This document shows positions 9,201-61,344 of a stretch of 64,000 bases of DNA, piece by piece. Origin of the DNA: Halopseudomonas aestusnigri. GTDB taxonomy: Bacteria > Pseudomonadota > Alphaproteobacteria > Kiloniellales > Kiloniellaceae. A program made the position numbers and the translations under genes. Below the pieces are notes generated by a model. That model was not told where the DNA came from, did not search any database, and saw nothing but the letters and a program-made list of their open reading frames with translations. The stretch is taken from positions 10,799-74,798 of the forward strand of contig JBALWN010000010.1 in assembly GCA_036960845.1 (NCBI GenBank). The letters are read 5' to 3'. The first letter of the stretch is position 1, and each line of letters begins with the position of its first letter.

Positions 9201-10355
9201 GCCGTAACCCGCTACAGGGTATTTATAATCGGTCTTGCCTGTATTTAAGACCGCACCTGTAGCAAAACTATGCAAATCGAAGTATAGCCGAACAGCCCCG
9301 GTTGTAACCGTAATACCACCAGTACCAGCTATAGGGTCATGGCCCGTCATGTAGATACCATTAACAGCACAATACAGGCGTCTGTTTGGCATATCAAAAT
9401 ACACCGACATAACATCACCAGCAGTAGCGTTAGCTAGTTCCCCATGTGTGGTTACAGAGCTTCCGTCATCGTAAGTTTTGTACTGTGCATCCATGTATAT
9501 GCCAGATTGATTGCCATGCACACCAACGGAGTTACCCGCGAAATTCTCTAGTCCTGTCTTGTTTATAGCCATGATGAAATGGGAGAAATCTGTGTAGTCA
9601 CTCACCTCAACTTGAAACTTAATCTCTGGAAGAATATCTGTGTGAGCCTGTTTCCAATTAGCCTCAGTATTATATATAAATGTACTCTCATTATTAACAT
9701 GCAACACGGTGTGATCATAAACTGTAATAGGGTAGAACCGCTCTTGTGTTCCCTCAGTCGTGAATTTCTTAGTGGTAACATTCACCCCATTTCCGTGAGG
9801 AACGTTTTGGGTGCGGTAGGTACGGCCTTCTTCTGGTGTCAAGACTTCCCCATCAAGCAACACAACATCTGATACACAAGCTTCTGTAGAGCCTGTGCCA
9901 TGATTGTACGCGCCAATATCCATAGCTGTGCCAGCGAGGTTTACGGTGGTCTGATGGTTAGCTGTTATAGGCGTATGATTTGAAACAGGAACCTCTTCGC
10001 CATTGATGCTAATTTTCATATCTTTGGCTACGCTGTCATACGTGAACATCGCAAAGAACCATTCGGTATCTCTGAATTTTTGTACTGTAGCGAGAGTACC
10101 AACTGTGTTGTTAGGAGCGCCTTCAAAACGTAAGGTGTCGTCAGTGTTGAAATAGATGTAGATACCCGTTCCAGCACTGAATACATACTGAAGTGTCCCA
10201 TGTTGGACCCTCCGTAAGTTCATCATCAATGTCCACTGACGGCGATTACCTGTAATCGTTGGAGTGTAGGTAAGTTTCTTGCCCGCAGACAGGGCAAGGG
10301 AGTTAGTTAAATCGTTCTGCCATCCATCATCATCACCGCTATAAAGTGCTCTCAT
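6210..10355 (-). CDS. tail fibre / receptor-binding protein (LamG-like N-terminus, four SPRY-like repeats, three C-terminal ~100-aa modules)
   Basis: 1381-aa uninterrupted ORF. ATGA overlap with the upstream adaptor gene. Internal repeats end in NFG-x-x-PF/PW-type strands (details in findings). Confidence 0.75.
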   Translation of the reverse strand: MRALYSGDDDGWQNDLTNSLALSAGKKLTYTPTITGNRRQWTLMMNLRRVQHGTLQYVFSAGTGIYIYFNTDDTLRFEGAPNNTVGTLATVQKFRDTEWFFAMFTYDSVAKDMKISINGEEVPVSNHTPITANHQTTVNLAGTAMDIGAYNHGTGSTEACVSDVVLLDGEVLTPEEGRTYRTQNVPHGNGVNVTTKKFTTEGTQERFYPITVYDHTVLHVNNESTFIYNTEANWKQAHTDILPEIKFQVEVSDYTDFSHFIMAINKTGLENFAGNSVGVHGNQSGIYMDAQYKTYDDGSSVTTHGELANATAGDVMSVYFDMPNRRLYCAVNGIYMTGHDPIAGTGGITVTTGAVRLYFDLHSFATGAVLNTGKTDYKYPVAGYGGLKEPAKSDLKRCKLLPTPNRACYLSQRQLSAYVNSGSWWSAQSNFVLNSGKIYIEHKNLTSDVNSLSWGLTSDLGRLDTFASNAIIGASNANTISFYLDTAGHYHQVYGNTGTNVTGVTGTWAGAHRANEVTKMAIDFDTGLWWYGSDDEWIGDPAAGTGGTTLPTGLDWKLFISVHSYGGGLFNFGDNPWDQIPPTGFVGPASLDFDTLRPAAPTGLVEATFGATVLSGPNNLITTRSNASFFGHYSQYLMNEGVYYAESTLDDTVQVMLGIFGPKSRVFGQNVQVADDWYGVYDGTNSHMNVYTAGGVSVVSSEPSLIRPTAGDVFGILLDLNRNKLFLRSPVGWYGDPVNGTGGIDLEPGQVWAFAGVLYSSGMTWNFGEFAPFTYSDQGVAYQKLNAQTAMQQELEYGPNGCQLLFEDSSNLGAVTAGNKLLWTLTGITSDDQLTDTPGDAYATLSAVRQNTGIIRNGGMSFQSTGATFSTTSLTMPTFESGCYIELSTTNRQDNYFGLMDPGYSLPGGATAASLFGNLTSLDDVRLAGLTGLVTRQQANGISATPLTDNEWSCMAYKEGNLWYGIISGGVITWYNSGNPATGANPTVTGIPSGLFFAVSIYNSGVMTFNCGQVPFQATPPAGFVELKSFNKPTPKYHGQDKFDIIRYIGDGTAARRLRSSVNMTNGVIMSKVVNGGYNFKLWSTLSTMGPTKELIPNSTGALATDANGLTAFHDDGYTGGPGNSVNEEGKIYQSWLFSNDGTEVDNTEGTVPTKVIADSTQYQTLLTWKGTGTSGATIGTGVDDVELFISKAFEPSTYSWQTWFKGLPDDYYLGFNSNGPQDGSVNIFPAAGRTNRLMQLATSTIKYTNLLNINYLGWGFKSVPGLCSIHTITGNGSTQGWRVHTGFLTRLVWVKRMDSSGAWNLLDTSLDSDGNPMREELNIDTFAAVTTAGGDRLDITSRGITCRSSGGAFNANGGRYLVVAFADSAGGGNLPGLLGN

Positions 10356-11260
10356 TCTAGCACCTCCAGGGCAACACGGGCGACGCCGTTTACCGTCGAC
10401 ATGTGCATGATGGTAATCACGCCATCGCCAACACCAAACGTGCCTTTGATGTAATCAAAGCTAGAGATATCAAGCGCCCCGGCGGTGGGGTCATTGGTCA
10501 TCCAGATATCGACTGAGTTATTGTTGGCTTTATCCGCTGTAATCGTCCCGGCGCCGTTGTTAATCATGGAAGTGAGAAAGGTTTTGGTCAGATCAATAAC
10601 GGGGTTAACCGAAGTATTACCGTAAGAATTCACGTCCGTGGTAAAGCCGGCACTAAGGGCCTTTGATATATCCGATAACAGAACCTTCTCTGTCCCGGAC
10701 AAACCGGAAAAGGGATGGGTATGTGCCTGGCCGGTATCTGCTGCCAGGGTAATGAGCCCCTGAACGGTACTCAACAGCGTACTGAACCCGACGGAAGACA
10801 TCACCAGCTTGCCATCAGCGTCGTAATAGGGAACCTCGTTTGGCACCGGGGCCGGGAATTGCAATTCATCCCCGCTATAGGAGACAGGAAGCTTGATCGC
10901 CAAACCAATTTGATCTGCTTGTTCCTGGTTTTGAATGGTTAAGAGATCAACGGCCGTTTCAATAACATCCGCAGGCATCCCGTCCGATATGGCAAGGTCT
11001 GTCTGCTGCTCCAGTGGCGTCGCACCCAAAATGGTGATGGTTTCCCCGACCAACGGGGCCGTTGAAAAGGTAATTGCCCCTCCGTTGGCTGTCCCGGACC
11101 CACTGACGGCAGAGGGAACAACAACGTTCTCAACTCCAGCCAGAGACGTAACCACCACCTTCAGATGACTGTCGGTCAAAAACTTGAAAGGCACGGCAAA
11201 AACCGCGGTAGAGCCATCTCCACTATAGGAGGCTCTCCGCGGTGTCGCAGAAATTGTCAT
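10352..11260 (-). CDS. tail fibre adaptor / short fibre protein
   Basis: N-terminus RRASYSGDGSTAVFAVPFKFLTDSHLKVVV...ILGATPLEQQTDL is typical of podovirus fibre N-terminal domains. TTG at 11275 or ATG at 11260. Confidence 0.6.
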   Translation of the reverse strand: MTISATPRRASYSGDGSTAVFAVPFKFLTDSHLKVVVTSLAGVENVVVPSAVSGSGTANGGAITFSTAPLVGETITILGATPLEQQTDLAISDGMPADVIETAVDLLTIQNQEQADQIGLAIKLPVSYSGDELQFPAPVPNEVPYYDADGKLVMSSVGFSTLLSTVQGLITLAADTGQAHTHPFSGLSGTEKVLLSDISKALSAGFTTDVNSYGNTSVNPVIDLTKTFLTSMINNGAGTITADKANNNSVDIWMTNDPTAGALDISSFDYIKGTFGVGDGVITIMHMSTVNGVARVALEVLE

Positions 11261-11276
11261 ATCAGATTTTCCCAAT

Positions 11277-11303
11277 AAAAAAACCTCCGCTAAAAAGCAG
11301 AGG
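11277..11303 (-). terminator. rho-independent terminator (minus strand)
   Basis: Minus strand reads CCTCTGC-TTTTTA-GCGGAGG followed by TTTTTTTATT, just after the 916-aa gene. Confidence 0.6.
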
Positions 11304-11371
11304 TTGAGACCTGTTTATCCAAGAACGATTATAAGTGTTGAGAAGGAGAGCTACAATTCATTAGAAAAAAA

Positions 11372-14062
11372 CTAATGTAAATTCGAACTTTCAAACCAGT
11401 CATCCATCAAAAATTCAACTGCTTTACTTTTAGCTTCGCCAGTAACCCCTTTTAAGAATTTCTCACCATCTCTATACATCTTTGATTGTATTTTTTGCCT
11501 AATTATATTTTGTTTCTCAAGTGATAGTTTCTTAAAAGTTTGTCTTGAAACGACACCCTTAAATGATTTCATAGCTGCATCAATCGTCGTATTTGCATTT
11601 GCAGAGAACACACCATAAGCAAGTGCTTCAGCGGGTTTAAATCCGTTTTTTAGTCCCCTTGCGATACTATCACCGACAACTTTTGATTTTAACCCTTGGT
11701 TTACTAATTGCCTAGCCATGGTAGCAGCAATAACATCAGGCATTGCTTTCACCAAAGCACGCTGCATTTTCAGGCCGCCTTTTTTGACCAAGTTACCAAT
11801 TTTTCCAACCTTTAAAGCGCTCAGCCCTGCAGTACCCAAATATCCTAAAGCACCTTTGACGTCATTTTTTTCCAGAGCAAGTGATGCATTAACCAACCCT
11901 TCTCCGATATCAAGAACAGTACCTGCAGGAGTCAATGAAACTATAAATACTGCAGTTTTAGCGACGTTTTCGTTCATTCCTGCATTAATAAAATGTCTTG
12001 TAAGTCCCTCTTCCCAGTCAACTTCTTCAAATATACTTCTTTGTAGTCCACCAGCTCTCAATGAATTGTGTTGATGTTCTGGGGTATTATTTATGGCCGC
12101 ATTATGTGTCGAAGGGTTTGATAGGTAACGTACACCGCCACGATTATGAGCCCAATATCGTTCATTAGTTGCTCTATCTTCGAGAGGTAATGCATCATAT
12201 CTTTTTTTATCAGTCATCATCAGATGCATCATAGAATTGTACCAGGCATGAGAATCACTTGAATAGCTAGAGTGCCTATCTACTTCGTTAGAGCTTTGAT
12301 GCAAAAGTGTACCAGCATCTCCTATTGCCAAGATTTCTTCTGTCAACAAATCAGTTTTCACCGTGTCTTCACTTCTACTTTCTTGGTCACTAACATCAGA
12401 ATCATTTTCGATTTCTTCGGAAAACTCTCCCGCATCACCAACGAAAAAATCACTTCCTGACCCTCCAAAGATTACACCCTCAACCCCAAATTCAACGACC
12501 TCACCATCATCGCGCATGGTATTGGCAATCTCTTCGACATCAAAAGGGCCAGCCTGCTTTTTATGAAGCTGTTCATACTCTTCAATGCGCTCATCAAATC
12601 TCGTTCTGAAGTCTGCAAAGTTGGCAGTTTCAAGCTCATCGCGTCCATTACGACCTGTGACTTCTTTCCACGTACGCAAAGCCAGTCTGTCACGTAACTT
12701 GAAATGTGCGGTTTCGTATGCGTCTGGCTCGGATTGTTGCATGGCCATGACTTGGCCGATTTGTTTTCGGCTTAGATCTTTAAAATAGTGGGACAGATCT
12801 AATCGTTGAAATGCTTCAAGATCTGAAACGCGTAACGAATTGATTTCATAAAGAGCCTGAGTTCCTTTTTTGCGGGTAAAGTCATCGCGGGCAGGCCCTC
12901 GTTCTATGTGGGTCTCAATGTCACGACGAAGGTTCTCATCCGCATCCAGAGGAATATCTGTAATCTCTGCGTTTTCACCTGTTTCCAGAATGCCGCCCCA
13001 AGCCGTATAGCGGTTTGTACGTATTGCTTCTCGCTGTGCACGCGCTCTTTTTCGTTCTTGGCTCTTGAACAAAGATAGCGCTTCATTAGCCAGATCAGAA
13101 TCAGGGTGAAGAGACATCTCCTGAAACTGTTCTTCGCCAGACAAACCAGCCACCGCCATATCATCAAGAAATCTAACGGCACCTTCTTGTAGCAACCCTT
13201 TGGTCGCAAGATCCTGAAAATAGGCTTTATCCACACCGCCAACATAACGATCTATATTGATCCGTGCTCCGGTTGCAGGGTCTATACCGTCCAATAGGGT
13301 TTGTAATGCACCGTAATTTCCTTGTTTGGCATGCCCTTGCAATGCAAAAGACAAAAGACTTTTACGTGCCTGCGCGCTTTTTTCTACGGCAGCATCTCGA
13401 CCTATGCCGGGTGCGAGATCATTAATAGAACTGTCAATAACGACAATTGCATCGGTCAGGGTACTGGGATCAGCCTCAACACCCGAATTATACTTCTCAA
13501 TATGGCGATCAACGGTCGCGTGAATTTTCTCAGTTAAGGCCTGCTTTTGAAACGCCCCCAAGGCTTCACGATCATACCCAATCTTCTCATCAAGCTTCCG
13601 ACTGAAAATATTTGCCGTTTCAGAATTATCAAACTCTTGCCGTGCCAAGATTTCACTCTTCTTTTCCGCATAGGCAGTACTAACTTCCTGATTTATTTTA
13701 TCTGGCGACTTTTCGGTAAACCCAAGTTGATCACGAACGGTTTGATAAATACCCGAAGTAAACTCTGACAATTCCTCATAAACATCAACATCACGCAATT
13801 TTTCTTGAAGAAATTTAGACGCATCTGTCAGATCTGCTTTAAATCCTTCAACAAACGTCTCATCTACATTAGTATCAGGCGACGTCTTTTTTTCTGGTGA
13901 TGTCTCTTTATCTACAGATGCTTCTTCTTCAGGTTGTTTGGGGATCTTCTTTGCTAGCGTTTTAGACAAAGAATTAAGCCCATCCGAAACCGCATCAAAA
14001 TTTTCATCAGGCAAAGAAAAACCTGCGCTTGATGGCGCCCGGCTATCAGGGATATTTGGCAT
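11372..14062 (-). CDS. internal virion / ejection protein (large)
   Basis: Position between tail tubular B and the fibres. The ORF opens at 14122, but its first 20 codons lie inside the intergenic repeat, so MPNIPDS at 14062 is the likely start. Confidence 0.6.
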   Translation of the reverse strand: MPNIPDSRAPSSAGFSLPDENFDAVSDGLNSLSKTLAKKIPKQPEEEASVDKETSPEKKTSPDTNVDETFVEGFKADLTDASKFLQEKLRDVDVYEELSEFTSGIYQTVRDQLGFTEKSPDKINQEVSTAYAEKKSEILARQEFDNSETANIFSRKLDEKIGYDREALGAFQKQALTEKIHATVDRHIEKYNSGVEADPSTLTDAIVVIDSSINDLAPGIGRDAAVEKSAQARKSLLSFALQGHAKQGNYGALQTLLDGIDPATGARINIDRYVGGVDKAYFQDLATKGLLQEGAVRFLDDMAVAGLSGEEQFQEMSLHPDSDLANEALSLFKSQERKRARAQREAIRTNRYTAWGGILETGENAEITDIPLDADENLRRDIETHIERGPARDDFTRKKGTQALYEINSLRVSDLEAFQRLDLSHYFKDLSRKQIGQVMAMQQSEPDAYETAHFKLRDRLALRTWKEVTGRNGRDELETANFADFRTRFDERIEEYEQLHKKQAGPFDVEEIANTMRDDGEVVEFGVEGVIFGGSGSDFFVGDAGEFSEEIENDSDVSDQESRSEDTVKTDLLTEEILAIGDAGTLLHQSSNEVDRHSSYSSDSHAWYNSMMHLMMTDKKRYDALPLEDRATNERYWAHNRGGVRYLSNPSTHNAAINNTPEHQHNSLRAGGLQRSIFEEVDWEEGLTRHFINAGMNENVAKTAVFIVSLTPAGTVLDIGEGLVNASLALEKNDVKGALGYLGTAGLSALKVGKIGNLVKKGGLKMQRALVKAMPDVIAATMARQLVNQGLKSKVVGDSIARGLKNGFKPAEALAYGVFSANANTTIDAAMKSFKGVVSRQTFKKLSLEKQNIIRQKIQSKMYRDGEKFLKGVTGEAKSKAVEFLMDDWFESSNLH

Positions 14063-52548: not shown

Positions 52549-53871
52549 ATGACTTCGACACAACAACCACGTCCATCTCGCCGCCATTTATCCAGCACTC
52601 AGCAATCCAGAACCAAATATTCTAGAAATATGTTTCATGGTTCGATTAATTTTGAGCAGCAAAAAAAACGAGCAAAAGATCTTTATAAAGCCATGAATAA
52701 AGGCGAAAATATCGCCCTGCTCCGTTTTTCTCAATATCATCCAAAAGCCCAGGCCATTACTCAGGTCAAAGCTCCGGATTTAAATATCTCTCTCCATCTT
52801 CTAAAACTCAGCGATTGCCAATTGGTGATATCACGAGAAAATGGTTTCGCTTCCTGGCCGCAACTGAAGACACATTGTGATCGTCTTGCCTTACGTAAAA
52901 AACAAATCAGCGAAGGCACAGCTCCTCAGCTTGATGACGATAAGACCCTGCACATCCGCTGTGGCTCTGATATTAAGCACGGTTTGGGTATCGCAGGATT
53001 TGTCGGAGAATTTCATGAATTTTCGGATCCCTTCTGTCAGGGCCCTGTACCAAATTTAGAAGGCGAGGCTTTCTACAAACTACGAGCAGACTTTATATCA
53101 ACCACCTACGGCTTGCCTCTCCAGGAAATTCAGACCCGGCAAAAGCTTGGTTATGAAAAACTCGACAACCTACATAGCTACACAAAAATTGTGTTGTGGT
53201 TTGAACACGACAGTTACGATCAACTCATTTTGGCCTATCTTTTAAACCATATATCGGGTCTTTCATCGTCACCCACTATTGATTTGATCTGCGTAGATGA
53301 TGTCCCAGGAGTGCCTGGTTTTACGGGGCTTGGGCAATTAGCCCCAGAGATGTTGGTTTGGGTGTGGGAAAATTGCCGCGCCCCCCTTACTGAAGAACAA
53401 ATTGTCCTTGGAAAAGTTGTTTGGAAAGCCGTTCAACAAGACACCCCTATGGCCCTTGAAGCTATTACATCCCAAGGAACACCGGAAATCCCACCCATGG
53501 CCGCTGCTTTGGAACGTCATCTGCAGGAACTACCCGCACCCCACAATGGCCTTAGCCTAACCCAACAGTTATCACTCGAAATTATTGCAGATAGTAAATC
53601 TATCAAAGGCGGAAAACTCTTTAATCAACTCATGCGTGAAAGAGAACCTCTCCCATTCCTCGGCGATTTGATGTTCTGGTCGGTTCTTGCTGAACTTGCT
53701 CAGGGCAAAACCCCTCTTATTGCTTACGAAAAGACAGAACAACCAATTCCGTGGCCTGAACGGCAGATTACTCTCACAAATACTGGTAAAAAAATCCTCA
53801 ACGGCGACCTAAACTACCTAGACATAACCCAATCAGAACGATGGGTAGGTGGCATCAAGATTTCTCTATAG
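52549..53871 (+). CDS. DUF1835/DUF3658-type protein
   Basis: LHIRCGSDIKHGLGIAGFVGEFHEFSDPFCQGPVP is DUF1835-like. The C-terminal half resembles DUF3658. Confidence 0.55.
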   Translation: MTSTQQPRPSRRHLSSTQQSRTKYSRNMFHGSINFEQQKKRAKDLYKAMNKGENIALLRFSQYHPKAQAITQVKAPDLNISLHLLKLSDCQLVISRENGFASWPQLKTHCDRLALRKKQISEGTAPQLDDDKTLHIRCGSDIKHGLGIAGFVGEFHEFSDPFCQGPVPNLEGEAFYKLRADFISTTYGLPLQEIQTRQKLGYEKLDNLHSYTKIVLWFEHDSYDQLILAYLLNHISGLSSSPTIDLICVDDVPGVPGFTGLGQLAPEMLVWVWENCRAPLTEEQIVLGKVVWKAVQQDTPMALEAITSQGTPEIPPMAAALERHLQELPAPHNGLSLTQQLSLEIIADSKSIKGGKLFNQLMREREPLPFLGDLMFWSVLAELAQGKTPLIAYEKTEQPIPWPERQITLTNTGKKILNGDLNYLDITQSERWVGGIKISL

Positions 53872-54036
53872 GCTTTTGTTCCTACATAGGTGTTCGTATA
53901 TAACCACGTTAATAATTCTCACAAATCTGTGATTAGATTTGGTTGTATAATCAAGGGAAACTTCTCTTCATTGAAATCAGATACCTTGATTCTACTAATG
54001 AGTTTATTAGGCAATTGATATATTGGGGGAAAGAGT

Positions 54037-54597
54037 ATGGATACACAGAGCGAGAAAGCCATTCCTTTGAGTAAGGTAAAGCTGGTTTTCTTCCAACTTC
54101 TTGCCTTAGCATTGGTTGGACTTGGTGCATCAATTTTTACTCTGTCCCCCGAAGAGCTTATTAATCAACGAGGTCAAGATGAAACGACCTTGATGTATAG
54201 TATGGCAGTCATCTTAATTTTGCTTTGTGGAGGTGCTGGGGTGGTATGTTTTATGAAGCTTTTAGATACTGCACCAGGATTAACTCTCTCAACCACTGGC
54301 TTTACGGATAATTCGAGCAGTATGCCGGCAGAATTTATTCCTTGGGAAGAGGTTACAGAGCTAAAAGAGTTCCGATTTAACCGACAAAAAATAGTCTCTA
54401 TCCATATTAAAAACCCCGAAATTCACCTTAGAAAGGGTAATATTTTACAACGCCTGACCAATCGCGCTGTATCGAAGGCCAGTGGTACCCCTATAAATAT
54501 TTCGGCCAATAGCCTTAAAACCAGTTACAACAGCTTGGTTGCCGATTTTGAACGATACTTTAAACACAGCCAAAACCAAAATCTAAAAAGCAGTTAA
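54037..54597 (+). CDS. two-TM membrane protein with a PH-like C-terminal domain (STM3941-like)
   Basis: TM helices VFFQLLALALVGLGASIF and MAVILILLCGGAGVVCFM, followed by a ~100-aa soluble domain. Confidence 0.45.
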   Translation: MDTQSEKAIPLSKVKLVFFQLLALALVGLGASIFTLSPEELINQRGQDETTLMYSMAVILILLCGGAGVVCFMKLLDTAPGLTLSTTGFTDNSSSMPAEFIPWEEVTELKEFRFNRQKIVSIHIKNPEIHLRKGNILQRLTNRAVSKASGTPINISANSLKTSYNSLVADFERYFKHSQNQNLKSS

Positions 54598-54604
54598 CTT
54601 TAAC

Positions 54605-55159
54605 ATGATACCCGTTGGCTATATGGCGAAATATATCGCCAAAAAACCCAAAATTCTTAATAATAAAATTGTTAAAGATCTCTTTTCGGTAAGTGGGTGT
54701 ATTTCGGAAAATTTCGCCGATTATATACCCTTTTGGAAGCACAATGGTTATTGGTTATTCAACTGTCCAACAATAATAACGAAGCTCGCTAAAGATAATA
54801 ATCTCAATTTATCCCAAACTCGAATTTTTTATTATGAAGCTTACGAACTACAGCATAGATCCGAAAAAAAAATAGTGGGTGGACATTGGGAACCCTTTGC
54901 GTCTGAAAAATCAATACCGACAGATGTGTTTGTCCCCACGCGAAAAAAGCTGGAGGGATTTGATATAGTATCTTTCTCGCAAGAGAATGCGCCAGAATGT
55001 TCCTTTCTGTCTTGTAACCATATGGCTGAAGAGATCGTGGTCAACAGCCATTGCCTTCTTGGATCATTAGACGAGGCCAAAAATTACTTAAACCAAGGGT
55101 TTTTCGACAACTGTGAACCCGGGCCCAATAGGATATTGGCCGTTTATAGTTTGGATTAG
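54605..55159 (+). CDS. hypothetical protein
   Basis: 184-aa ORF starting 8 nt after the previous stop. No recognised domain. Confidence 0.4.
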   Translation: MIPVGYMAKYIAKKPKILNNKIVKDLFSVSGCISENFADYIPFWKHNGYWLFNCPTIITKLAKDNNLNLSQTRIFYYEAYELQHRSEKKIVGGHWEPFASEKSIPTDVFVPTRKKLEGFDIVSFSQENAPECSFLSCNHMAEEIVVNSHCLLGSLDEAKNYLNQGFFDNCEPGPNRILAVYSLD

Positions 55160-55197
55160 TAAACTCTCAGTTAGGTCTCTGCCATTACGTCAGATTA

Positions 55198-56781
55198 CTA
55201 ACGTACCTTCGCTTTTTTTGCGAACACTATCTTACGCTCTTGCCCCTCCATTTTTACAGTGAAACGGTAGGCTTCATTCATGCCTTTTTTACCAGAGTGA
55301 GTGAATACGAGTACACGTTCTCCGTCAGTTCGAATATGGATAATACCAAAATTCTTGCGCTCAAAAGCATAGAAAGCCCCGCGAGGATCTCCAGGATCTA
55401 TTTTCCCGGTAAACATTTTTTGTAGTTCTTCACGGGTAAAGTTTTCTCGGGTGTGTTCTTTAAAAAAGGCTTTTAAATCATCACGCTCATAAGCATAACC
55501 TTTGGTGCCGAAAAAAGCGGCTAATTCAGTGTTCAATATCACACCTGTATCCAAACGCATAACTTTCCCCAAAGCTGCCATCAAAGTTGCTCGAGGGTGA
55601 ATGTGTTCTTTGCTTGGGTTTTCGTCACCAGATGAAATTATTGCCACGATGGGGCTCATATCTTTGAGTGCATGAAAGTCAAAATCGGCTGATCCATGGT
55701 GCGGCGCTTTTATAATCTCGGCCTCGAGCTCATTTGCAGGTATATTCTCTCGCATCAATCTCATAGAAGGCTTGTTCAAATCCCCGGTCAGATTTAAACG
55801 CACATTTCCGACACGAACTTGCAAGGCAATAGAATGGCCATTGATAGTGTGTGAAGCTGAAATCGCCCCCTCTCGTCCTCCATCAAGATGCATATCGGGG
55901 GATTTTTCAGGGGCACGGAAAAACCGCAACATCGGCTTTATTTTATCATCCAGCGGGTCCTTGATCGGCTCGCTAAAGGGGCCTTGCAGACGCACATGAA
56001 CGCCGTCTTCATGAAGAAAATCAAAAAGGTCATTTTCATTATCTCCAAAAGCAATCCGACGAACATCCATATGCCCTAGGGCTTCCCAGTGATCTAAAGT
56101 TTTTGCCCAGCGATCAAATGGCGCGTTGCGTAACTCATCTTCGACATCTCTTGGATCATCCACGAGATCACAGGCGTAGGTTTCCCCTTGTTTTTCTATG
56201 CTACGACCAAACATTTCTCGGGTTGGTCTACTTGATCTATCCTCTTTTTTTGATGATGCCTTCACCAAACCATTGTGATAGATCCGTTTGGGATGGATAA
56301 AGATGCGCTTACGATCAGCCAGCCCCGGTTGCAGTTCGGATCTAACGAGGTCATTCAAACCATCAAAATGATCGGCATCCCCGTGAGAGATAATGATTGC
56401 AGCCACATCCAAGGGGTTATCGGCAGAGGTCTGTCTGTGCCTGAATCGTGCAGCCACATGACGGGCGAAAAGTTTATTATCCCCCCCATCAATCAGAACG
56501 ATCTTACCATTGGGAGATTCCATAATCAGGCCGTCTCCTTGTTGGACATCGACCATGGAAAATTTGAATATCCCCTTATCACCTAACGAAAGGTTCGGAT
56601 CATTTTTGGCCCAACCCTCAGCGGTACCATCATAATGTGTTTTCGCCCTCAACTTGATGTATCGGCCGTGTTGCTCAATAACATCAACTTCGTCACCATA
56701 AGCCAGGGTCAATATCACCTTCGATCTGGAATCAGGTTCACGCCGTAATCTCACAAAATCATCATAGATAAACTTGCTCAT
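55198..56781 (-). CDS. SH3b-like domain + ComEC/Rec2-type metallo-beta-lactamase-fold hydrolase
   Basis: SH3-like VRLRREPDSRSKVILTLAYGDEVDVIEQHGRYIKLRA...GWA. MBL motifs VDVQQGDG, SHGDADH (56368-56388), SASHTINGHS, LTGDL and APHHGS. AAGGAAA SD precedes the ATG at 56781 (ORF opens at 56817). Confidence 0.75.
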   Translation of the reverse strand: MSKFIYDDFVRLRREPDSRSKVILTLAYGDEVDVIEQHGRYIKLRAKTHYDGTAEGWAKNDPNLSLGDKGIFKFSMVDVQQGDGLIMESPNGKIVLIDGGDNKLFARHVAARFRHRQTSADNPLDVAAIIISHGDADHFDGLNDLVRSELQPGLADRKRIFIHPKRIYHNGLVKASSKKEDRSSRPTREMFGRSIEKQGETYACDLVDDPRDVEDELRNAPFDRWAKTLDHWEALGHMDVRRIAFGDNENDLFDFLHEDGVHVRLQGPFSEPIKDPLDDKIKPMLRFFRAPEKSPDMHLDGGREGAISASHTINGHSIALQVRVGNVRLNLTGDLNKPSMRLMRENIPANELEAEIIKAPHHGSADFDFHALKDMSPIVAIISSGDENPSKEHIHPRATLMAALGKVMRLDTGVILNTELAAFFGTKGYAYERDDLKAFFKEHTRENFTREELQKMFTGKIDPGDPRGAFYAFERKNFGIIHIRTDGERVLVFTHSGKKGMNEAYRFTVKMEGQERKIVFAKKAKVR

Positions 56782-56856
56782 ACCAGTTTCCTTAAATTCC
56801 AGTGACCTCATTTCCATTTGAAGTCAGGTTTAATTTATCAAAAGGGGCGTTATTCC

Positions 56857-57897
56857 CTAAAATATTGTGGTCCACCCTTCACGTGCGGCTTCGTGTTTTT
56901 TATAGCTGATAGCATGGGCGACAATTCCATCAGGCGTAACCAATCGGATGACGCCGCCTTTATTACGAAGGTGAGGATTATCCGGCCCAGCGGACAGAGT
57001 TATTCTTATGGTCTCGCCGGCTCGAACCTTCCCTTCAAGAGACTGAGCGCGATCATCTCGATCCATCAACCTCCAACCCCTTAAATCAAATGCGGCATCA
57101 GTGCGATTAAGGAGTGTTACGCTCTCCCTACCGTCTTCATTTCCTGAAGGGTTTATAAGGGCGGCAATGATCGCCACACCTGGCTTCAAAGGATCAATCT
57201 TTCCTGGTTCGACAACAATATCATCCAAAGGATGTCCGGTATGGGCATCCGTGTTCCAATCCTGGCTTTGAAAAGCGAGAAAAATAGCGGCCCAGTGATT
57301 AGTGGTGCCAAAATGAATTAAAAGGGCCCCATCTTGATTAGCGCCATTTGTTGCCTTGAAACGTCCGCTCGATCCCTGATTCAAATGTACATCGTGAATA
57401 CCATTGCCAGGAACAAAGCCAAAATACTTATCTACTTCACCATCTTCAGGACCCCAAGCTTCTCCAAAGATATAAAAAGTAAGACTATTATCTGCCATAC
57501 CCTGGCGGATAATAGGCTCTAAATAATCGCGAAGATCATTATCCGGACCAGTGCGTTGAAAGGGAGCAATTTCCATCGCTTCACGTTGGACAAAGTTCCC
57601 CCTGACGTAGTCAAGAACCAGTTCTGATAAGCGGCTATTTGGCACATTATTTCGACCATTCTTCAAATCAATTAGCCCTTCTGGAAGAGCAAGTAATTCA
57701 TTTAAAAAGGGATGGGAGAAAGGATCTTGCTTACGATAAAGAAGATCGTTGGGAGCAACATTCGAACGCACATTGATGGCCGCGCGGTAACTTACCCCTG
57801 CTGCTTCTATCCTGATTTCCATATGCGGGCTATCATCATCATCAATGGCAATATTTGACGCTTTACCCTTGAGGAGTGAATAGTTTTTTAACGGCAT
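56857..57897 (-). CDS. DUF2278 (YukJ-like) domain fused to a lamin-tail domain (LTD)
   Basis: GNGIHDVHLNQGSSGRF...NQDGALLIHF...AIFLAFQSQDWNTD is the DUF2278 signature. The C-terminal IAALINPSGNEDGRESVTLLNRTDAAFDLRGWRLMD...AGETIRI...NKGGVIRLVTPDG is the LTD pattern (about 56878-57192). Confidence 0.7.
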   Translation of the reverse strand: MPLKNYSLLKGKASNIAIDDDDSPHMEIRIEAAGVSYRAAINVRSNVAPNDLLYRKQDPFSHPFLNELLALPEGLIDLKNGRNNVPNSRLSELVLDYVRGNFVQREAMEIAPFQRTGPDNDLRDYLEPIIRQGMADNSLTFYIFGEAWGPEDGEVDKYFGFVPGNGIHDVHLNQGSSGRFKATNGANQDGALLIHFGTTNHWAAIFLAFQSQDWNTDAHTGHPLDDIVVEPGKIDPLKPGVAIIAALINPSGNEDGRESVTLLNRTDAAFDLRGWRLMDRDDRAQSLEGKVRAGETIRITLSAGPDNPHLRNKGGVIRLVTPDGIVAHAISYKKHEAAREGWTTIF

Positions 57898-58206
57898 GTG
57901 CTGACAGTCCCTTCAGGTGAACACCAGGAAAAATAAAAATACATATTTGATTAAAACCTAAATCATAACAGAAATCATGTGAAATTTACGTGAAATCAAT
58001 AAACTATTTCAACCTTTTATGGTGTAAATTTATTTCAACATGACTTAAAACTATGACCCTGGTCTGAATAAAAGTGCCTTTAACTTGTCGGTAGTGAATT
58101 AACTTTATGATGATTAAGGCTTTTGAGCACATTAGGTCTTTAGGGAAGATAGTTTTACTGTGTGTTTCAATGTCGTGATTGGTTATAAAAATTCGCGGAT
58201 TGTACC

Positions 58207-59034: not shown

Positions 59035-61344
59035 ATGCTAAAAGAGTGGCAGTATAAATATGGCCTTTCCCGCCTGCAGATCAAACTGCTTACCATCACT
59101 GTTCCCATTTTTCTCATTCTAGGCGCAATATTTGTTACCACTATGGAAGTAACCATATATGTGGATGAAAAAATTAAACTCGAAGAAAAACTAGAACGTA
59201 TTTCAGAAACTTTCATGGTCGTTGTTGCTGAACCCTTGTGGAATGTTGACATGGATCGGACTTCCTCAATTCTTGAGGCCATGACCATCGACAAAGACTT
59301 TGTCAGCGCCGTTGTATATGACGATGAAGGAAATCTGTTTGCAGAAATAGGTAAAAAAACCAAAGAAATACCTACATCTTTAACGTCTCAGAAATCTATA
59401 AAATATATTCCTGAAATGGAACAGGAACCTAGAGTAATAGGTACATTGGTCATTGTTTTCACAGATAAACAGTTGTTATCAGCGACCTACAGACGGGTAG
59501 AAATAGTTGCCACCCTGGCCATCCTCTTAGTCTTGGTCATGACCGTCACAAACATTTTTATTCACAGAAAATTTGTCGGAACCCCTCTACAGCGCATGCT
59601 TGCGCTTATCCAATCAACTTCAGAAAAGTCTCGCGGCCAAAGGGTACAGTGGTCTAGTGATGATGAGATTGGCGTGGTTACAACCGCGTTCAATCAAATG
59701 CTCGACGTTCAAGAACGATATTACGAAGAACTTGAAATTCAGGTTGAAAAGCGAACTCAAGAGCTTTCGGAAAAATCAGAATTATTACAGGCTGCGCTCT
59801 CTAACATGAGAGGCGGTCTTGTGGTGTATGATGCTCAAGGTCGCATGCTAACTTGGAACACCCAATATTTTGAAATATTTAAGCTCCCAGATCAATTCCA
59901 ACGTGTTGGTCAAGATTATGCAGAGATTATAAAACATGATGTTGAAATTTGTTTTTTCGATAAAGACCTACATCACAATTTCGATATCGACACCCTTATT
60001 CAAAAACGCCTAAACAGTTTTGCAGAAGGTAGAACAGAAACAGAGGAGCTATTTTTCACCGATGGTCGCATCGTAGAAGCAAGACGAAATCCAATGCCGG
60101 GTGGGGGGCAAATTTGCAGCTATATTGATATTACCACACGCAAACTTGCCGAAGAACAAATGGTCGAAAAGGAAGCACAACTCAGAGCCGTCCTCGACAA
60201 TATACCCGGCGGGATCAGATATGTAGATAAGGACCGGAATTATGTCTTCTTCAATACACAATATTCTAGATTATATGGCTTTCCCGACGACCTGTTAAAA
60301 ATAGGAAATTCCGTTCGTACCGAAAATCTGTACCAAGCCAAACGGGGAGACTTTGGGAGTGGTGATCCAGGCGAACTGGTTGATACCTGGTTCGAAAAGT
60401 TCCCAGTACTTGATAATCCTCAAAACTGGGAACGTACAACAGTTCACGGTAAAGTGCTTGAGGTTCATACCACCCCAACTCCGACTGGTGGCGTCATAAA
60501 TGTTGTTACAGATATCACCACACGCAAGCAAGCTGTTGAGGAGCTTCGTAAGGCAAAGGAAATTGCAGAACTCGCTAACAGATCCAAGTCTGATTTCCTG
60601 GCCGCCATGAGCCATGAACTCAGAACGCCTCTGAATGCCATTCTTGGATTTTCGGCCATGATCAAAGATCAAATGCTCGGCCCAAACAAACAAGACGTTT
60701 ATGCTGAATACGGAACCGATATTTTTAATAGTGGCCGACATCTTCTTCGCTTAATCAATGACTTATTAGATTTATCGAAGATAGAAGCCGGAAAACTCGA
60801 GCTTACTTTTGATACGTTGAACGTTAAAAAATCGATCTTGGAAAACATCCGCACCATGGATCCTATTGCAGCAAGATCAGAGGTAAAAACTGAAACCATT
60901 TTCGCGGACAACCTTCCTTCACTGATCGCCGATCAACGAGCCCTAGATCAAATCATCTTAAATTTACTGTCAAACGCAATTAAATTCACCCCTCCGGACG
61001 GTCTCATAACGGTGCGTGTTTCAAGTGACACCGATTACACCCGTATTGTGATTTCAGATACCGGGATCGGTATCGAACATGAGTATATAGATAAAATCTT
61101 GAAACCCTGGGGGCAAATCATAGATCCCTTGAGGATTGATGTTAAGGGATCAGGCCTTGGCCTTCCAATCGTCAAATCTCTGGTCGAATTACACAGCGGC
61201 AAACTCAAACTCGAAAGTGAAGTCGGCACAGGAACAACCGTAACAGTAACCTTGCCAAATTCGGAGCCAAATTCGGGGCCAAATTCGGGGCCAAATTCGG
61301 GGCCAAATTCAGGGCCAAATCTGGAGCCAGAAGCTGAAATTTAA
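59035..61344 (+). CDS. sensor histidine kinase (two TM, HAMP, two PAS, HisKA, HATPase_c, C-terminal SGPN repeat tail)
   Basis: HAMP: GTPLQRMLALIQSTSEKSRGQ...IGVVTTAFNQM. H-box: FLAAMSHELRTPLNAILGFSAMI. N/G boxes are present. Confidence 0.85.
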   Translation: MLKEWQYKYGLSRLQIKLLTITVPIFLILGAIFVTTMEVTIYVDEKIKLEEKLERISETFMVVVAEPLWNVDMDRTSSILEAMTIDKDFVSAVVYDDEGNLFAEIGKKTKEIPTSLTSQKSIKYIPEMEQEPRVIGTLVIVFTDKQLLSATYRRVEIVATLAILLVLVMTVTNIFIHRKFVGTPLQRMLALIQSTSEKSRGQRVQWSSDDEIGVVTTAFNQMLDVQERYYEELEIQVEKRTQELSEKSELLQAALSNMRGGLVVYDAQGRMLTWNTQYFEIFKLPDQFQRVGQDYAEIIKHDVEICFFDKDLHHNFDIDTLIQKRLNSFAEGRTETEELFFTDGRIVEARRNPMPGGGQICSYIDITTRKLAEEQMVEKEAQLRAVLDNIPGGIRYVDKDRNYVFFNTQYSRLYGFPDDLLKIGNSVRTENLYQAKRGDFGSGDPGELVDTWFEKFPVLDNPQNWERTTVHGKVLEVHTTPTPTGGVINVVTDITTRKQAVEELRKAKEIAELANRSKSDFLAAMSHELRTPLNAILGFSAMIKDQMLGPNKQDVYAEYGTDIFNSGRHLLRLINDLLDLSKIEAGKLELTFDTLNVKKSILENIRTMDPIAARSEVKTETIFADNLPSLIADQRALDQIILNLLSNAIKFTPPDGLITVRVSSDTDYTRIVISDTGIGIEHEYIDKILKPWGQIIDPLRIDVKGSGLGLPIVKSLVELHSGKLKLESEVGTGTTVTVTLPNSEPNSGPNSGPNSGPNSGPNLEPEAEI
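61255..61332 (+). repeat. in-frame 12-nt tandem repeat, about 6 units (TCGGGGCCAAAT)
   Basis: Encodes NSEPNSGPNSGPNSGPNSGPNLEPE at the extreme C-terminus of the kinase. Three central units are identical. Confidence 0.85.

What the first reader, a model, noticed from the sequence alone, without database searches (positions are those of the whole stretch)
55198..57897. Two-gene module: DUF2278(YukJ)-lamin-tail-domain protein followed by an SH3b + ComEC-type MBL hydrolase
Two co-directional minus-strand genes lie about 75 nt apart (stop at 56857, likely start at 56781). They sit apart from the surrounding signalling genes, next to a run of DUF genes.

Gene 1 fuses an uncharacterised DUF2278 core (HDVHLNQG...QDGALLIHF...FLAFQSQDW) to an LTD. 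In bacteria, LTDs are typically appended to nucleases and phosphoesterases.

Gene 2 has an SH3b-like N-terminus and a metallo-beta-lactamase fold. Its ligand motifs look complete (SHGDADH, H, D, HH) and are of the ComEC/Rec2 DNA-processing flavour.

Neither protein has a signal peptide or TM helix, so a classical secreted eDNA nuclease is not obvious. I know of no described system that combines these parts. A cytoplasmic DNA-targeting module (defence, or degradation of incoming DNA) is a reasonable but unproven reading.
Basis: partly seen in the sequence, partly recalled or inferred. Interest (0 to 1): 0.7.

Follow-up and report, generated by a model that had tools for sequence, protein, structure and literature searches.

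The report
Lineage-restricted DUF2278-LTD and SH3-MBL gene pair
Two real, uncharacterised hydrolase-type genes lie next to each other here, but they are not a conserved two-gene system: almost everywhere else each gene occurs alone, and they are paired only sporadically, in a few unrelated lineages.

Summary
Gene 1 (56857-57897, minus) is DUF2278/YukJ plus a lamin-tail domain. Gene 2 (55198-56781, minus) is SH3b plus a ComEC-type metallo-beta-lactamase with a complete, invariant ligand set. Neither has a signal peptide or TM helix.

- None of 80 genomes carrying gene 1 has gene 2 within 10 kb.
- Of 79 metagenome contigs carrying gene 2 from other lineages, one has gene 1.
- Kiloniella antarctica keeps gene 1 in the same synteny but lacks a 3-kb block that contains gene 2.
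- Neither family has a conserved neighbour, a full PADLOC match, a defence-island context or a phage association.

Pure chance is also unlikely. The pairing arose independently at least three times: Kiloniella; L181, with a 25%-identical gene 2 subfamily; and L165, in reverse order. Elsewhere DUF2278 genes sit beside other nuclease-type genes: an LmuA-type MBL, a DNase I-like EEP, a PLD-like protein and an Endonuclease I-like protein.

Best reading: a facultative, probably co-transcribed pairing of two normally stand-alone hydrolases that likely act on DNA or other phosphodiesters. The physiological role is unresolved. Interest is moderate to low.

The parts
56857..57897 (-). Gene 1: DUF2278 (YukJ-family) core fused to a lamin-tail domain, 346 aa
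   Evidence: ORF. PF10042 at 210 bits and LTD at 31.4 bits. 25-sequence alignment A1 with an invariant His/Asp/Asn cluster: H25, H168, H171, N173, Q174, G175, D189, Q212, with D169 nearly invariant.
57235..57897 (-). DUF2278 core (aa 1-221): confidently predicted beta-rich domain with no detectable solved-structure relative
   Evidence: Whole-chain AF2 model has mean pLDDT 83.7, with most blocks of the core at 84 or above. No PDB or BFVD match to this part. Profile search against PDB sequences gave 0 hits.
56899..57177 (-). Lamin-tail (Ig-fold) domain of gene 1 (aa 241-333)
   Evidence: Foldseek matches to lamin B1 and lamin A/C Ig-folds at E 3e-4, prob 1.0.
56782..56856 (-). 75-nt spacer between gene 1 and gene 2, with the gene 2 ribosome-binding site AAGGAA at 56788-56793. 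No terminator-like or promoter-like hit on this strand.
   Evidence: Sequence. Promoter and terminator scan. The TTAAGGAAACTG block is conserved in L081 and L084.
55198..56781 (-). Gene 2: SH3b plus ComEC-type MBL hydrolase with a structured insertion of about 150 aa and a C-terminal domain, 527 aa
   Evidence: AF2 model pLDDT 84.9, pTM 0.86. Best fold match is 9ic4, the ComEC MBL domain, followed by the Pce phosphorylcholine esterase.
56602..56757 (-). SH3b-like N-terminal domain of gene 2
   Evidence: PF08239 at 32.7 bits, above the 27-bit gathering score. Fold matches to the SH3b domains of 3npf and 4r0k.
53862..56858 (.). 3-kb variable block (gene 2, a 184-aa ORF and an STM3941-family gene). 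Present in the window and in L081-L083; only partly present in L084; absent from Kiloniella antarctica.
   Evidence: blastn synteny comparison. Gene tables. No flanking repeats.
57979..58012 (-). Promoter-like site upstream of gene 1, overlapping a TTTCAC-N5-TTTCAC direct repeat. This is the candidate promoter and operator for a gene 1-gene 2 transcript.
   Evidence: This rests on consensus matches only and is not shown to be functional.

Best explanation
The two genes are normally stand-alone genes for soluble, apparently cytoplasmic hydrolase-type proteins. They have been brought together in one Kiloniella clade. They are not the two halves of a conserved system.

How the pairing arose: gene 1 is resident in the local synteny. 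Gene 2 belongs to a 3-kb block that is present or absent between Kiloniella species.

Expression (inferred): where both are present they are probably co-transcribed from a promoter upstream of gene 1.

Gene 2 (inferred from homology): a two-metal ComEC-type phosphodiesterase, most likely a DNase. It carries an SH3b-like binding domain and a large structured insertion.

Gene 1 (inferred; activity unknown): the DUF2278 core has an invariant His/Asp/Asn cluster that suggests a metal-dependent active site. The lamin-tail domain would tether it to DNA or another polymer.

Relationship between the two: the same kind of pairing arose independently elsewhere, and other DUF2278 genes sit beside unrelated nuclease superfamilies. 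I therefore read the pair as a facultative partnership acting on the same nucleic-acid or phosphodiester substrate. Each gene is able to work alone or with another partner.

Open question: whether the role is DNA turnover, scavenging or conflict.
For: Not a fixed module:
- 0 of 80 gene 1 genome loci have a gene 2 relative within 10 kb, by tblastn, by profile search and by a search with the divergent L181 MBL.
- 1 of 84 gene 2 loci outside Kiloniella has gene 1.
- K. antarctica has gene 1 in the same synteny, with the DUF1835 gene starting 30 nt after its stop.
- No conserved neighbour exists for either family.

Probably co-transcribed:
- The gap is 66-75 nt, the ribosome-binding site is conserved, and no terminator is predicted.

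Not mere chance:
- L181 has gene 1 followed by a 505-aa MBL after 52 nt. This MBL has the same architecture as gene 2 but only 25% identity (E 2e-27), whereas the gene 1 copy is 49% identical. That pattern indicates a separate pairing event.
- L165 has the pair in the reverse order.
- L047 has a Peptidase_S8 protein, an LmuA-type MBL and then DUF2278-LTD.

Other nuclease-type genes next to DUF2278:
- L173: a DNase I-like EEP in the slot that gene 2 occupies here.
- L176, L041, L034: a PLD-like protein.
- L175: an Endonuclease I-like protein.

Gene 2 chemistry:
-. ComEC-type MBLs are DNases according to PMC12799240 and bioRxiv 10.1101/2025.09.03.673762.
Against: - About 90% or more of loci of either family show no nuclease-type partner.
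- The partner families were found by inspecting neighbours after the fact, with no formal genome-wide background. The enrichment is therefore suggestive, not demonstrated.
- Some of the lineages counted are related (the two Nitrospira loci, for example).
- The second-best fold match for gene 2 is a phosphorylcholine esterase, so the substrate need not be DNA.
- No activity is known for any DUF2278 protein. B. subtilis YukJ was still described as of unknown function in 2026.
- Co-transcription is inferred only from spacing and the lack of a predicted terminator.
Confidence: 0.5

Rival explanations
1. Coincidental neighbours. The adjacency is a by-product of an insertion or deletion in a variable chromosomal spot, and the two proteins have nothing to do with each other.
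For: - The 3-kb block containing gene 2 is absent in K. antarctica, and it is further rearranged by an ISL3 insertion in L084.
- Both families are overwhelmingly found alone, in unrelated and mostly housekeeping contexts.
Against: Independent pairings in L181 (different gene 2 subfamily, same order) and L165 (reverse order) are very unlikely if placement is random. By my rough estimate (assumed: the family present in at most about 2% of genomes, about 4000 genes per genome), a gene family that rare should be the immediate neighbour of a given gene in roughly 1 in 100,000 loci.
Confidence: 0.22
2. A dedicated anti-phage or anti-plasmid defence system. The MBL would be a DNA-degrading effector, and DUF2278-LTD its sensor or regulator.
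For: - The MBL domain of gene 2 is related to the MBL nucleases of Lamassu, AVAST, DRT and PDC-M48B (E 1e-9 to 1e-13, partial matches). Those nucleases are now known to be protease-gated DNases (PMC12799240).
- In L047 a DUF2278-LTD gene directly follows a subtilase plus LmuA-type MBL pair.
- L181 has a caspase-family gene about 5 kb upstream.
Against: - There is no full-length match to any PADLOC or NCBIfam defence model: Avs1a scores 48 bits against a cut-off of 420.
- No protease gene lies next to the pair.
- Only a handful of the 148 neighbours of gene 2 homologues match defence models.
- The gene 2 family is unusually conserved, with 59% mean column identity across phyla.
- Contexts are mostly housekeeping.
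- Gene 2 is absent from viral contigs, and gene 1 is nearly absent.
- The pairing is not conserved.
Confidence: 0.1
3. Exported degradative enzymes released by a non-classical route. They would belong to a stationary-phase or antagonistic exo-hydrolase repertoire used for extracellular DNA or lipid scavenging, or as injected effectors.
For: - LTD and SH3b are typical of extracellular or envelope-associated proteins (PMC6085458).
- YukJ was detected in the pellicle and cell-free fractions of B. amyloliquefaciens (PMC12020853).
- YukJ genes on Bacillus and Priestia plasmids lie among M28, M4 and S8 proteases, phospholipase C and an endonuclease.
- DUF2278-LTD lies in eCIS-associated regions in L035 and L172.
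- Gene 2 homologues lie beside signal-peptide-bearing S1/P1 nucleases and beside Tle1-like or patatin-like lipases.
Against: - Neither protein, nor any of their homologues, has a signal peptide or TM segment.
- Detection in an exoproteome can reflect cell lysis.
- No secretion-system genes were seen next to the pair in the window.
Confidence: 0.12
4. Gene 1 is an inhibitor or immunity protein that keeps the cytoplasmic nuclease encoded by gene 2 in check, in the manner of a toxin-antitoxin pair.
For: - Gene 1 lies upstream of a potentially self-toxic cytoplasmic nuclease, in an operon-like arrangement.
- Many 'orphan' copies exist, as is seen for immunity genes.
Against: - The order is reversed in L165 and L047.
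- The partners belong to unrelated nuclease superfamilies. That argues against a specific inhibitor.
- The invariant His/Asp/Asn cluster looks catalytic rather than like a binding surface.
- Gene 2 homologues nearly always lack gene 1.
Confidence: 0.05

Closest known systems
ComEC/Rec2 C-terminal MBL nuclease domain (PDB 9ic4; Silale et al. 2021, as cited in PMC12799240)
   Same: Best sequence and fold match of gene 2. The same variant ligand motifs are present: D-x-G-x-GD, H-x-D-x-DH and HHGS.
   Different: Gene 2 is a soluble stand-alone protein without the OB domain or the membrane channel. It adds an SH3b domain, a structured insertion of about 150 aa and a C-terminal domain of about 130 aa. 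TIGR00361 scores 45.9 bits against a cut-off of 190.
Protease-gated MBL pro-nucleases of defence systems (HamM, Avs1a, the Lamassu and DRT MBLs, CanC; PMC12799240, bioRxiv 10.1101/2025.09.03.673762, PMC12642450)
   Same: A ComEC-like MBL with insertions relative to ComEC. Partial PADLOC and NCBIfam hits. A true member of that group lies beside a DUF2278-LTD gene in L047.
   Different: No adjacent trypsin-like, caspase or subtilase gene in the window. Scores are far below the family cut-offs. The insertion is a confidently folded domain, not a short gating loop. The contexts are not defence islands.
LTD-linked phosphoesterases such as ExeM/NucH (Mans et al. 2004, as cited in PMC6085458)
   Same: A lamin-tail domain associated with MBL, EEP or other phosphoesterase chemistry. 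In ExeM the LTD contributes to DNase activity.
   Different: In those proteins the LTD is fused to the hydrolase, and the protein carries a signal peptide or membrane anchor. Here the LTD is fused to DUF2278, the MBL is a separate gene, and neither protein has an export signal.
Bacillus subtilis YukJ (DUF2278 family)
   Same: Same Pfam family as the gene 1 core. The N-terminal motif MP(L/V)KNY..LKG and the His/Asn motif are shared.
   Different: YukJ-type proteins are about 215-230 aa and lack the LTD. Their function is unknown; YukJ is described as probably stationary-phase expressed.
Pce/CbpE phosphorylcholine esterase of Streptococcus pneumoniae (PDB 1wra, 2bib)
   Same: Second-best fold match of gene 2 (E 1.7e-8). 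It is an MBL phosphodiesterase joined to a binding module.
   Different: Pce is secreted and uses choline-binding repeats. Structure-based identity to gene 2 is only 13-14%.

Membership tests
DUF2278 / YukJ family (PF10042) | Full-length match to the family profile above the gathering score | tested here: met
   210.4 bits against a gathering score of 25. Residues 1-221 align to profile positions 1-206 of 206.
Lamin-tail domain (PF00932) | Profile match above the gathering score, and the lamin-type Ig fold | tested here: met
   The window protein scores 31.4 bits, just below the gathering score of 34.3. However, 25 of 25 homologues match (best E 9.4e-12). The modelled domain also matches lamin B1 and lamin A/C Ig-folds (E 3e-4, prob 1.0).
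ComEC-type MBL hydrolase domain | MBL fold with the ComEC-variant metal-ligand motifs (H-x-D-x-DH, H, D, HHGS) | tested here: met
   The motifs are invariant in 25 homologues. The top PDB match by sequence and by fold is the ComEC MBL domain 9ic4.
ComEC/Rec2 competence protein | OB/DUF4131 domain, polytopic membrane channel and MBL domain in one protein | tested here: not met
   No hydrophobic segment (maximum KD19 of 1.22). TIGR00361 scores 45.9 bits against a cut-off of 190, and the match covers the MBL part only.
Protease-MBL pro-nuclease defence modules (Avs1a, HamM, LmuA-MBL, CanC) | Adjacent, co-evolving protease gene (trypsin-like, caspase) | tested here: not met
   No protease domain in gene 1 or in the flanking genes of the window.
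Protease-MBL pro-nuclease defence modules (Avs1a, HamM, LmuA-MBL, CanC) | Full-length match to the family models | tested here: not met
   NCBIfam Avs1a scores 48 bits against a cut-off of 420. The PADLOC LmuA, RTasMBL and Avs1a hits each cover about 80-125 of 322-392 profile positions in their best stretch. By contrast, the L047 MBL matches LmuA at 1e-51 over its full length.
Protease-MBL pro-nuclease defence modules (Avs1a, HamM, LmuA-MBL, CanC) | Short loops that block the active site and carry protease cleavage sites | not testable with these tools
   Model coordinates could not be inspected. The main insertion is predicted as a folded domain (pLDDT mostly 78-96). Lower-confidence stretches lie at about residues 381-400 and 421-480.
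Conserved two-gene system (DUF2278-LTD with SH3-MBL) | The two families co-occur as neighbours across genomes | tested here: not met
   0 of 80 and 1 of 84 outside Kiloniella. One further case, L181, was found among six targeted look-ups. K. antarctica lacks gene 2.
Secreted LTD nucleases (ExeM/NucH type) | N-terminal signal peptide or membrane anchor | tested here: not met
   No hydrophobic N-terminus in gene 1, in gene 2 or in the aligned homologues. This was a hydropathy check only; no dedicated predictor was available.
Bacterial SH3 domain (PF08239) | Profile match above the gathering score | tested here: met
   32.7 bits against a gathering score of 27. Fold matches to SH3b domains.

The most novel reading that the evidence does not exclude
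DUF2278(-LTD) is a previously unrecognised facultative partner of cytoplasmic nuclease effectors from several superfamilies: ComEC-type MBL (including protease-gated LmuA-type MBLs), DNase I-like EEP, PLD-like and Endonuclease I. It would act as a DNA-tethered co-enzyme or regulator in conflict or DNA-clearance systems. On this reading the Kiloniella pair is one instance of a new, modular 'DUF2278 plus nuclease' system.
Probability: 0.18. Interest if true: 0.65.

Novelty: new variant of a known kind. Interest (0 to 1): 0.35.

Why it matters
As first proposed, a new two-gene DNA-targeting defence module would have been notable. The evidence here removes most of that claim: the pair is not a conserved system.

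Two things of modest value remain:
- Two large and widespread protein families have no known function. One is DUF2278/YukJ, whose confidently predicted core has no detectable solved-structure relative. The other is a very conserved family of about 520 aa combining SH3b and a ComEC-type MBL.
- There is a testable lead that DUF2278 proteins work alongside nucleases. If confirmed, this would give the YukJ family its first functional handle. It would also extend the old observation that lamin-tail domains accompany phosphoesterases.

Tried and rejected
- **Structural relatives of the DUF2278 core.** Foldseek against PDB and BFVD matched only the LTD part. The profile against PDB sequences gave nothing. 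Relaxed Pfam scans of 25 homologues gave no recurrent weak family.
- **Literature.** 'DUF2278' appears in one unrelated paper. Papers mentioning YukJ give no function.
- **NHEJ link.** Ku genes lie near a gene 2 homologue on pSK02 and LigD near one in Luteimonas. This did not recur in other loci, so I dropped it.
- **Possible MBLs beside gene 1 in Actinoplanes.** The 'H.D.DH...HHG' ORFs in L032 and L039 are spurious wrong-frame ORFs in high-GC DNA.
- **Mobile-element boundaries of the 3-kb block.** No flanking direct or inverted repeats were found.
- **tRNA and Rfam scans of the window.** Both were empty.
- **Phage origin.** Gene 2 is absent from IMG/VR, and the gene 1 core occurs in only 2 contigs.
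- **Plasmid origin.** Gene 2 has one full-length plasmid hit.
- **A conserved operon partner for gene 2.** Only lineage-specific neighbours were found: an ABC-2-like membrane protein in one subclade, FGE-sulfatase and DUF899.
Full report
**1. The observation**

Both ORFs exist as described.

Gene 1 (56857-57897, minus strand, 346 aa):
- It matches PF10042 (DUF2278) over residues 1-221 at E 3.6e-62.
- It matches the lamin-tail domain over residues 241-333 at 31.4 bits, just under the 34.3-bit gathering score.
- The LTD call is nevertheless secure. All 25 aligned homologues match the LTD model (best E 9.4e-12). The C-terminal domain of the AlphaFold model (mean pLDDT 83.7) matches lamin B1 and lamin A/C Ig-folds (E about 3e-4, probability 1.0).

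Gene 2:
- Its longest ORF runs 55198-56817, but the start is almost certainly ATG 56781. Homologues are about 520-527 aa and begin MSKF/MTKF, and AAGGAA lies 6 nt upstream.
- It has an SH3_3 domain above the Pfam threshold.
- Its MBL domain is closest, by sequence (E 7e-11) and by fold (E 5.5e-13, TM-score 0.72 normalised to the target), to the ComEC MBL domain 9ic4.
- The ComEC-variant ligand motifs (DVQQGDG, HGDADH, NGHS, TGD, HHGS) are invariant in 25 diverse homologues.

Neither protein has a hydrophobic N-terminus or a TM-like segment.

**2. Origin of the window**

The closest relatives of gene 1 are from Kiloniella sp. (79% identity) and K. antarctica (76%). A metagenomic lineage with 91% and 95% identity to the two proteins shares the whole neighbourhood. 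The window is therefore chromosomal DNA of a Kiloniella-like alphaproteobacterium.

**3. Is the pair a conserved module?**

- *From the gene 1 side.* A scan of one genome per GTDB species with the gene 1 alignment returned 80 loci with up to 10 kb of flank. They come from Rhizobium, Nostocales, Actinoplanes, Nitrospira, Nitrosospira, Chryseolinea and even archaea. None contains a gene 2 relative, whether tested by tblastn, by a profile built from 25 gene 2 homologues, or by a search with the most divergent family member found later. Among these 80 loci plus four later look-ups, 68 of 84 have at least 1.7 kb on both sides.
- *From the gene 2 side.* A metagenome scan with the gene 2 alignment returned 80 loci. 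Only two have a gene 1 relative. One is L086, which is the same Kiloniella-like lineage. The other is L165.
- *Within the genus.* K. antarctica has gene 1 in exactly the same synteny (PAS kinase and a 266-aa gene on one side; DUF1835, DUF3088 and a GGDEF-EAL gene on the other). Its gene 1 stop codon is followed 30 nt later by the DUF1835 gene. Window positions 53862-56858, which hold gene 2, a 184-aa ORF and an STM3941-family gene, have no counterpart there. In Kiloniella sp. (L084) an ISL3 element has been inserted next to gene 2.
- *Neighbours in general.* Clustering of all neighbours found no partner conserved beyond single lineages for either family. Gene 1 neighbours are lineage-specific housekeeping genes: an aldo-keto reductase in Rhizobium, and PsbP, Maf and SpoIIE genes in Nostocales. 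The closest non-Kiloniella gene 2 relatives (71% and 63% identity) sit among TctABC, isocitrate dehydrogenase, MscS, peptidase M20 and oligopeptide-transport genes.

**4. Is it a defence system?**

I found no positive evidence.

- Gene 1 matches nothing in PADLOC.
- Gene 2 gives only partial hits through the shared MBL domain to LmuA, RTasMBL, Avs1a and PDC-M48B. Its NCBIfam Avs1a score is 48 bits against a cut-off of 420.
- Recent work shows that those defence MBLs are pro-nucleases gated by short loops and activated by an adjacent, co-evolving protease (PMC12799240; bioRxiv 10.1101/2025.09.03.673762). The window has no protease gene next to the pair.
- Of 148 genes flanking gene 2 homologues, only a handful match any PADLOC model. 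The commonest Pfam families among them are ordinary ones.
- Gene 2 is absent from 2.9 million viral contigs, and the DUF2278 core occurs in two.
- Gene 2 has one full-length plasmid hit.
- The gene 2 family is also unusually conserved, with 59% mean column identity across phyla. This is not the usual pattern for defence genes; that comparison rests on my general knowledge.

**5. Pure coincidence does not fit either**

- *L181.* A gene 1 homologue (49% identity) is followed after 52 nt, in the same order as here, by a 505-aa protein. That protein aligns with gene 2 over nearly its whole length, including the insertion and the C-terminal 'TDGER' domain, but at only 25% identity (E 2e-27). Within Kiloniella, gene 2 is the more conserved of the two genes (88% against 79%). 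A 25%-identical partner therefore indicates a separate pairing event with a different subfamily, not shared descent.
- *L165.* A gene 2 homologue of about 45% identity is followed about 170 nt later by the start of a DUF2278 gene, which is the reverse order.
- *L047 (Chryseolinea).* A Peptidase_S8 protein and a genuine LmuA/Avs1a-type MBL (PADLOC LmuA at 1e-51) overlap by 4 nt. A DUF2278-LTD gene follows after 36 nt.

Other DUF2278 genes lie beside nuclease-type genes of unrelated superfamilies:
- L173 (58% identity to gene 1): a DNase I-like EEP protein in the slot that gene 2 occupies here.
- L176, an Undibacterium plasmid: a PLD-like protein of 565 aa immediately upstream. Close homologues of it lie within 0.7-2 kb of gene 1 in two Nitrospira MAGs.
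- L175, a B. thuringiensis plasmid: an Endonuclease I-like gene about 0.5 kb downstream.

All non-self hits of these partner families in gene 1 loci fall within about 2 kb of gene 1. None falls in the remaining 8 kb of either flank.

Gene 2 homologues are likewise occasionally next to:
- S1/P1 nucleases (L155 and pSK02);
- Tle1-like lipases (L097, L100);
- a patatin-like lipase together with a second MBL (L159);
- an EEP fragment (L089).

These associations were found by inspection and lack a formal background. I treat them as suggestive.

**6. Further context for DUF2278**

- On Bacillus and Priestia plasmids, YukJ genes sit among M28, M4 and S8 proteases, phospholipase C and peptidoglycan-binding proteins.
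- In L035 the DUF2278-LTD gene lies in a same-strand array with two eCIS_core proteins and a protealysin-like M4 peptidase.
- In L172 it lies a few kb from CIS_TMP and AAA genes and another LTD protein.
- YukJ was detected in pellicle and cell-free fractions of B. amyloliquefaciens. A 2026 preprint still calls it a protein of unknown function, probably expressed in stationary phase.
- The DUF2278 core is confidently modelled but has no match in PDB or BFVD.
- Its invariant residues (H25, H168, H171, N173, Q174, G175, D189, Q212, with D169 nearly invariant) suggest a metal-dependent active site. That is an inference only.

**7. Most likely explanation (confidence about 0.5)**

- The pair is a lineage-restricted and probably co-transcribed juxtaposition of two hydrolase genes that normally stand alone. 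The gap is 66-75 nt, the ribosome-binding site is conserved and no terminator is predicted.
- Gene 2 is inferred to be a two-metal ComEC-type phosphodiesterase, most likely a DNase.
- Gene 1 is an LTD-tethered enzyme of unknown activity.
- The independent recurrences, and the replacement of the MBL by other nuclease types, point to a facultative partnership on a nucleic-acid or phosphodiester substrate.
- The physiological role (DNA turnover, scavenging or conflict) is unresolved.

The rivals are coincidence (0.22), exported degradative enzymes (0.12), a dedicated defence system (0.10) and an inhibitor-nuclease pair (0.05).

**8. Novelty and interest**

The ingredients are known kinds: ComEC-like MBL nucleases, and lamin-tail domains accompanying MBL, EEP or calcineurin-like phosphoesterases (Mans et al. 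2004, as cited in PMC6085458). The arrangement is a new variant, because the LTD is on DUF2278 and the MBL is a separate SH3-bearing gene. It is rare and not a system in the usual sense. The practical value lies in a testable lead to the function of the YukJ/DUF2278 family. Interest: 0.35.

Noticed in passing
window 57979-57995 (minus strand), within 57983-58012: An exact direct repeat TTTCAC-N5-TTTCAC (11-bp period, the spacing typical of OmpR/PhoB-type regulators) overlaps the only sigma-70-like promoter hit upstream of gene 1. The block is conserved in L081 and L084, but that part of the intergenic region is missing in K. antarctica (L085). There is only one exact copy in the window.
   Followed up: partly
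L084 10812-12729 (corresponds to window 54604-55158): In Kiloniella sp. an ISL3-family transposase is inserted inside the homologue of the 184-aa ORF that converges on gene 2. The flanking matches overlap by 7 bp (window 54906-54912), which looks like a target-site duplication. The STM3941-family gene is also missing there.
   Followed up: partly
L047 6615-11023: In a Chryseolinea MAG, a 699-aa Peptidase_S8 (subtilase) protein overlaps by 4 nt a full-length LmuA/Avs1a-type MBL. This appears to be a subtilase version of the protease plus pro-nuclease defence pairs described for trypsin-like and caspase proteases. A DUF2278-LTD gene follows directly.
   Followed up: partly
L035 131-11101: On a Desulfobacterales contig, a same-strand array holds two eCIS_core (DUF4157) proteins (1625 aa and 332 aa), an LGT-like protein, DUF2278-LTD and a protealysin-like M4 peptidase. 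It looks like a payload region of an extracellular contractile injection system. L172 similarly has CIS_TMP and AAA genes and a separate 250-aa LTD protein a few kb from DUF2278-LTD.
   Followed up: partly
L174, L175, L178 (Bacillus thuringiensis and Priestia megaterium plasmids): YukJ-family genes, up to three per Bt megaplasmid, sit in clusters of M28, M4, S8 and zinc metalloproteases, phospholipase C, an Endonuclease I-like gene and peptidoglycan-binding proteins.
   Followed up: no
L159 2237-6671; L127/L128 about 8800-11413: Some gene 2 homologues are flanked by a second ComEC-like MBL: a 541-aa protein in L159, which also has a patatin-like lipase 3 nt downstream, and an LmuA-like MBL in L127/L128. 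These are small clusters of degradative enzymes around gene 2.
   Followed up: no
L142, L143, L156, L161 and about 6 other loci of the gene 2 subclade with about 45% identity: In this soil and sediment subclade the gene 2 homologue is regularly followed on the same strand by an ABC-2-type membrane protein. This is the only neighbour that recurs in about 10 loci, and it is absent from the window.
   Followed up: partly
window 61270-61344: The PAS-HisKA sensor kinase (59035-61344) ends in a short tandem peptide repeat, PNSG x4, followed by PNLEPEAEI.
   Followed up: no
L166 (R. leguminosarum plasmid pSK02) 5717-9308: A gene 2 homologue of 43% identity lies between a DUF3616 gene and a signal-peptide-bearing S1/P1 nuclease gene 40 nt downstream. 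Two Ku genes lie 4-5 kb away. The Ku/LigD link did not recur in other loci.
   Followed up: yes
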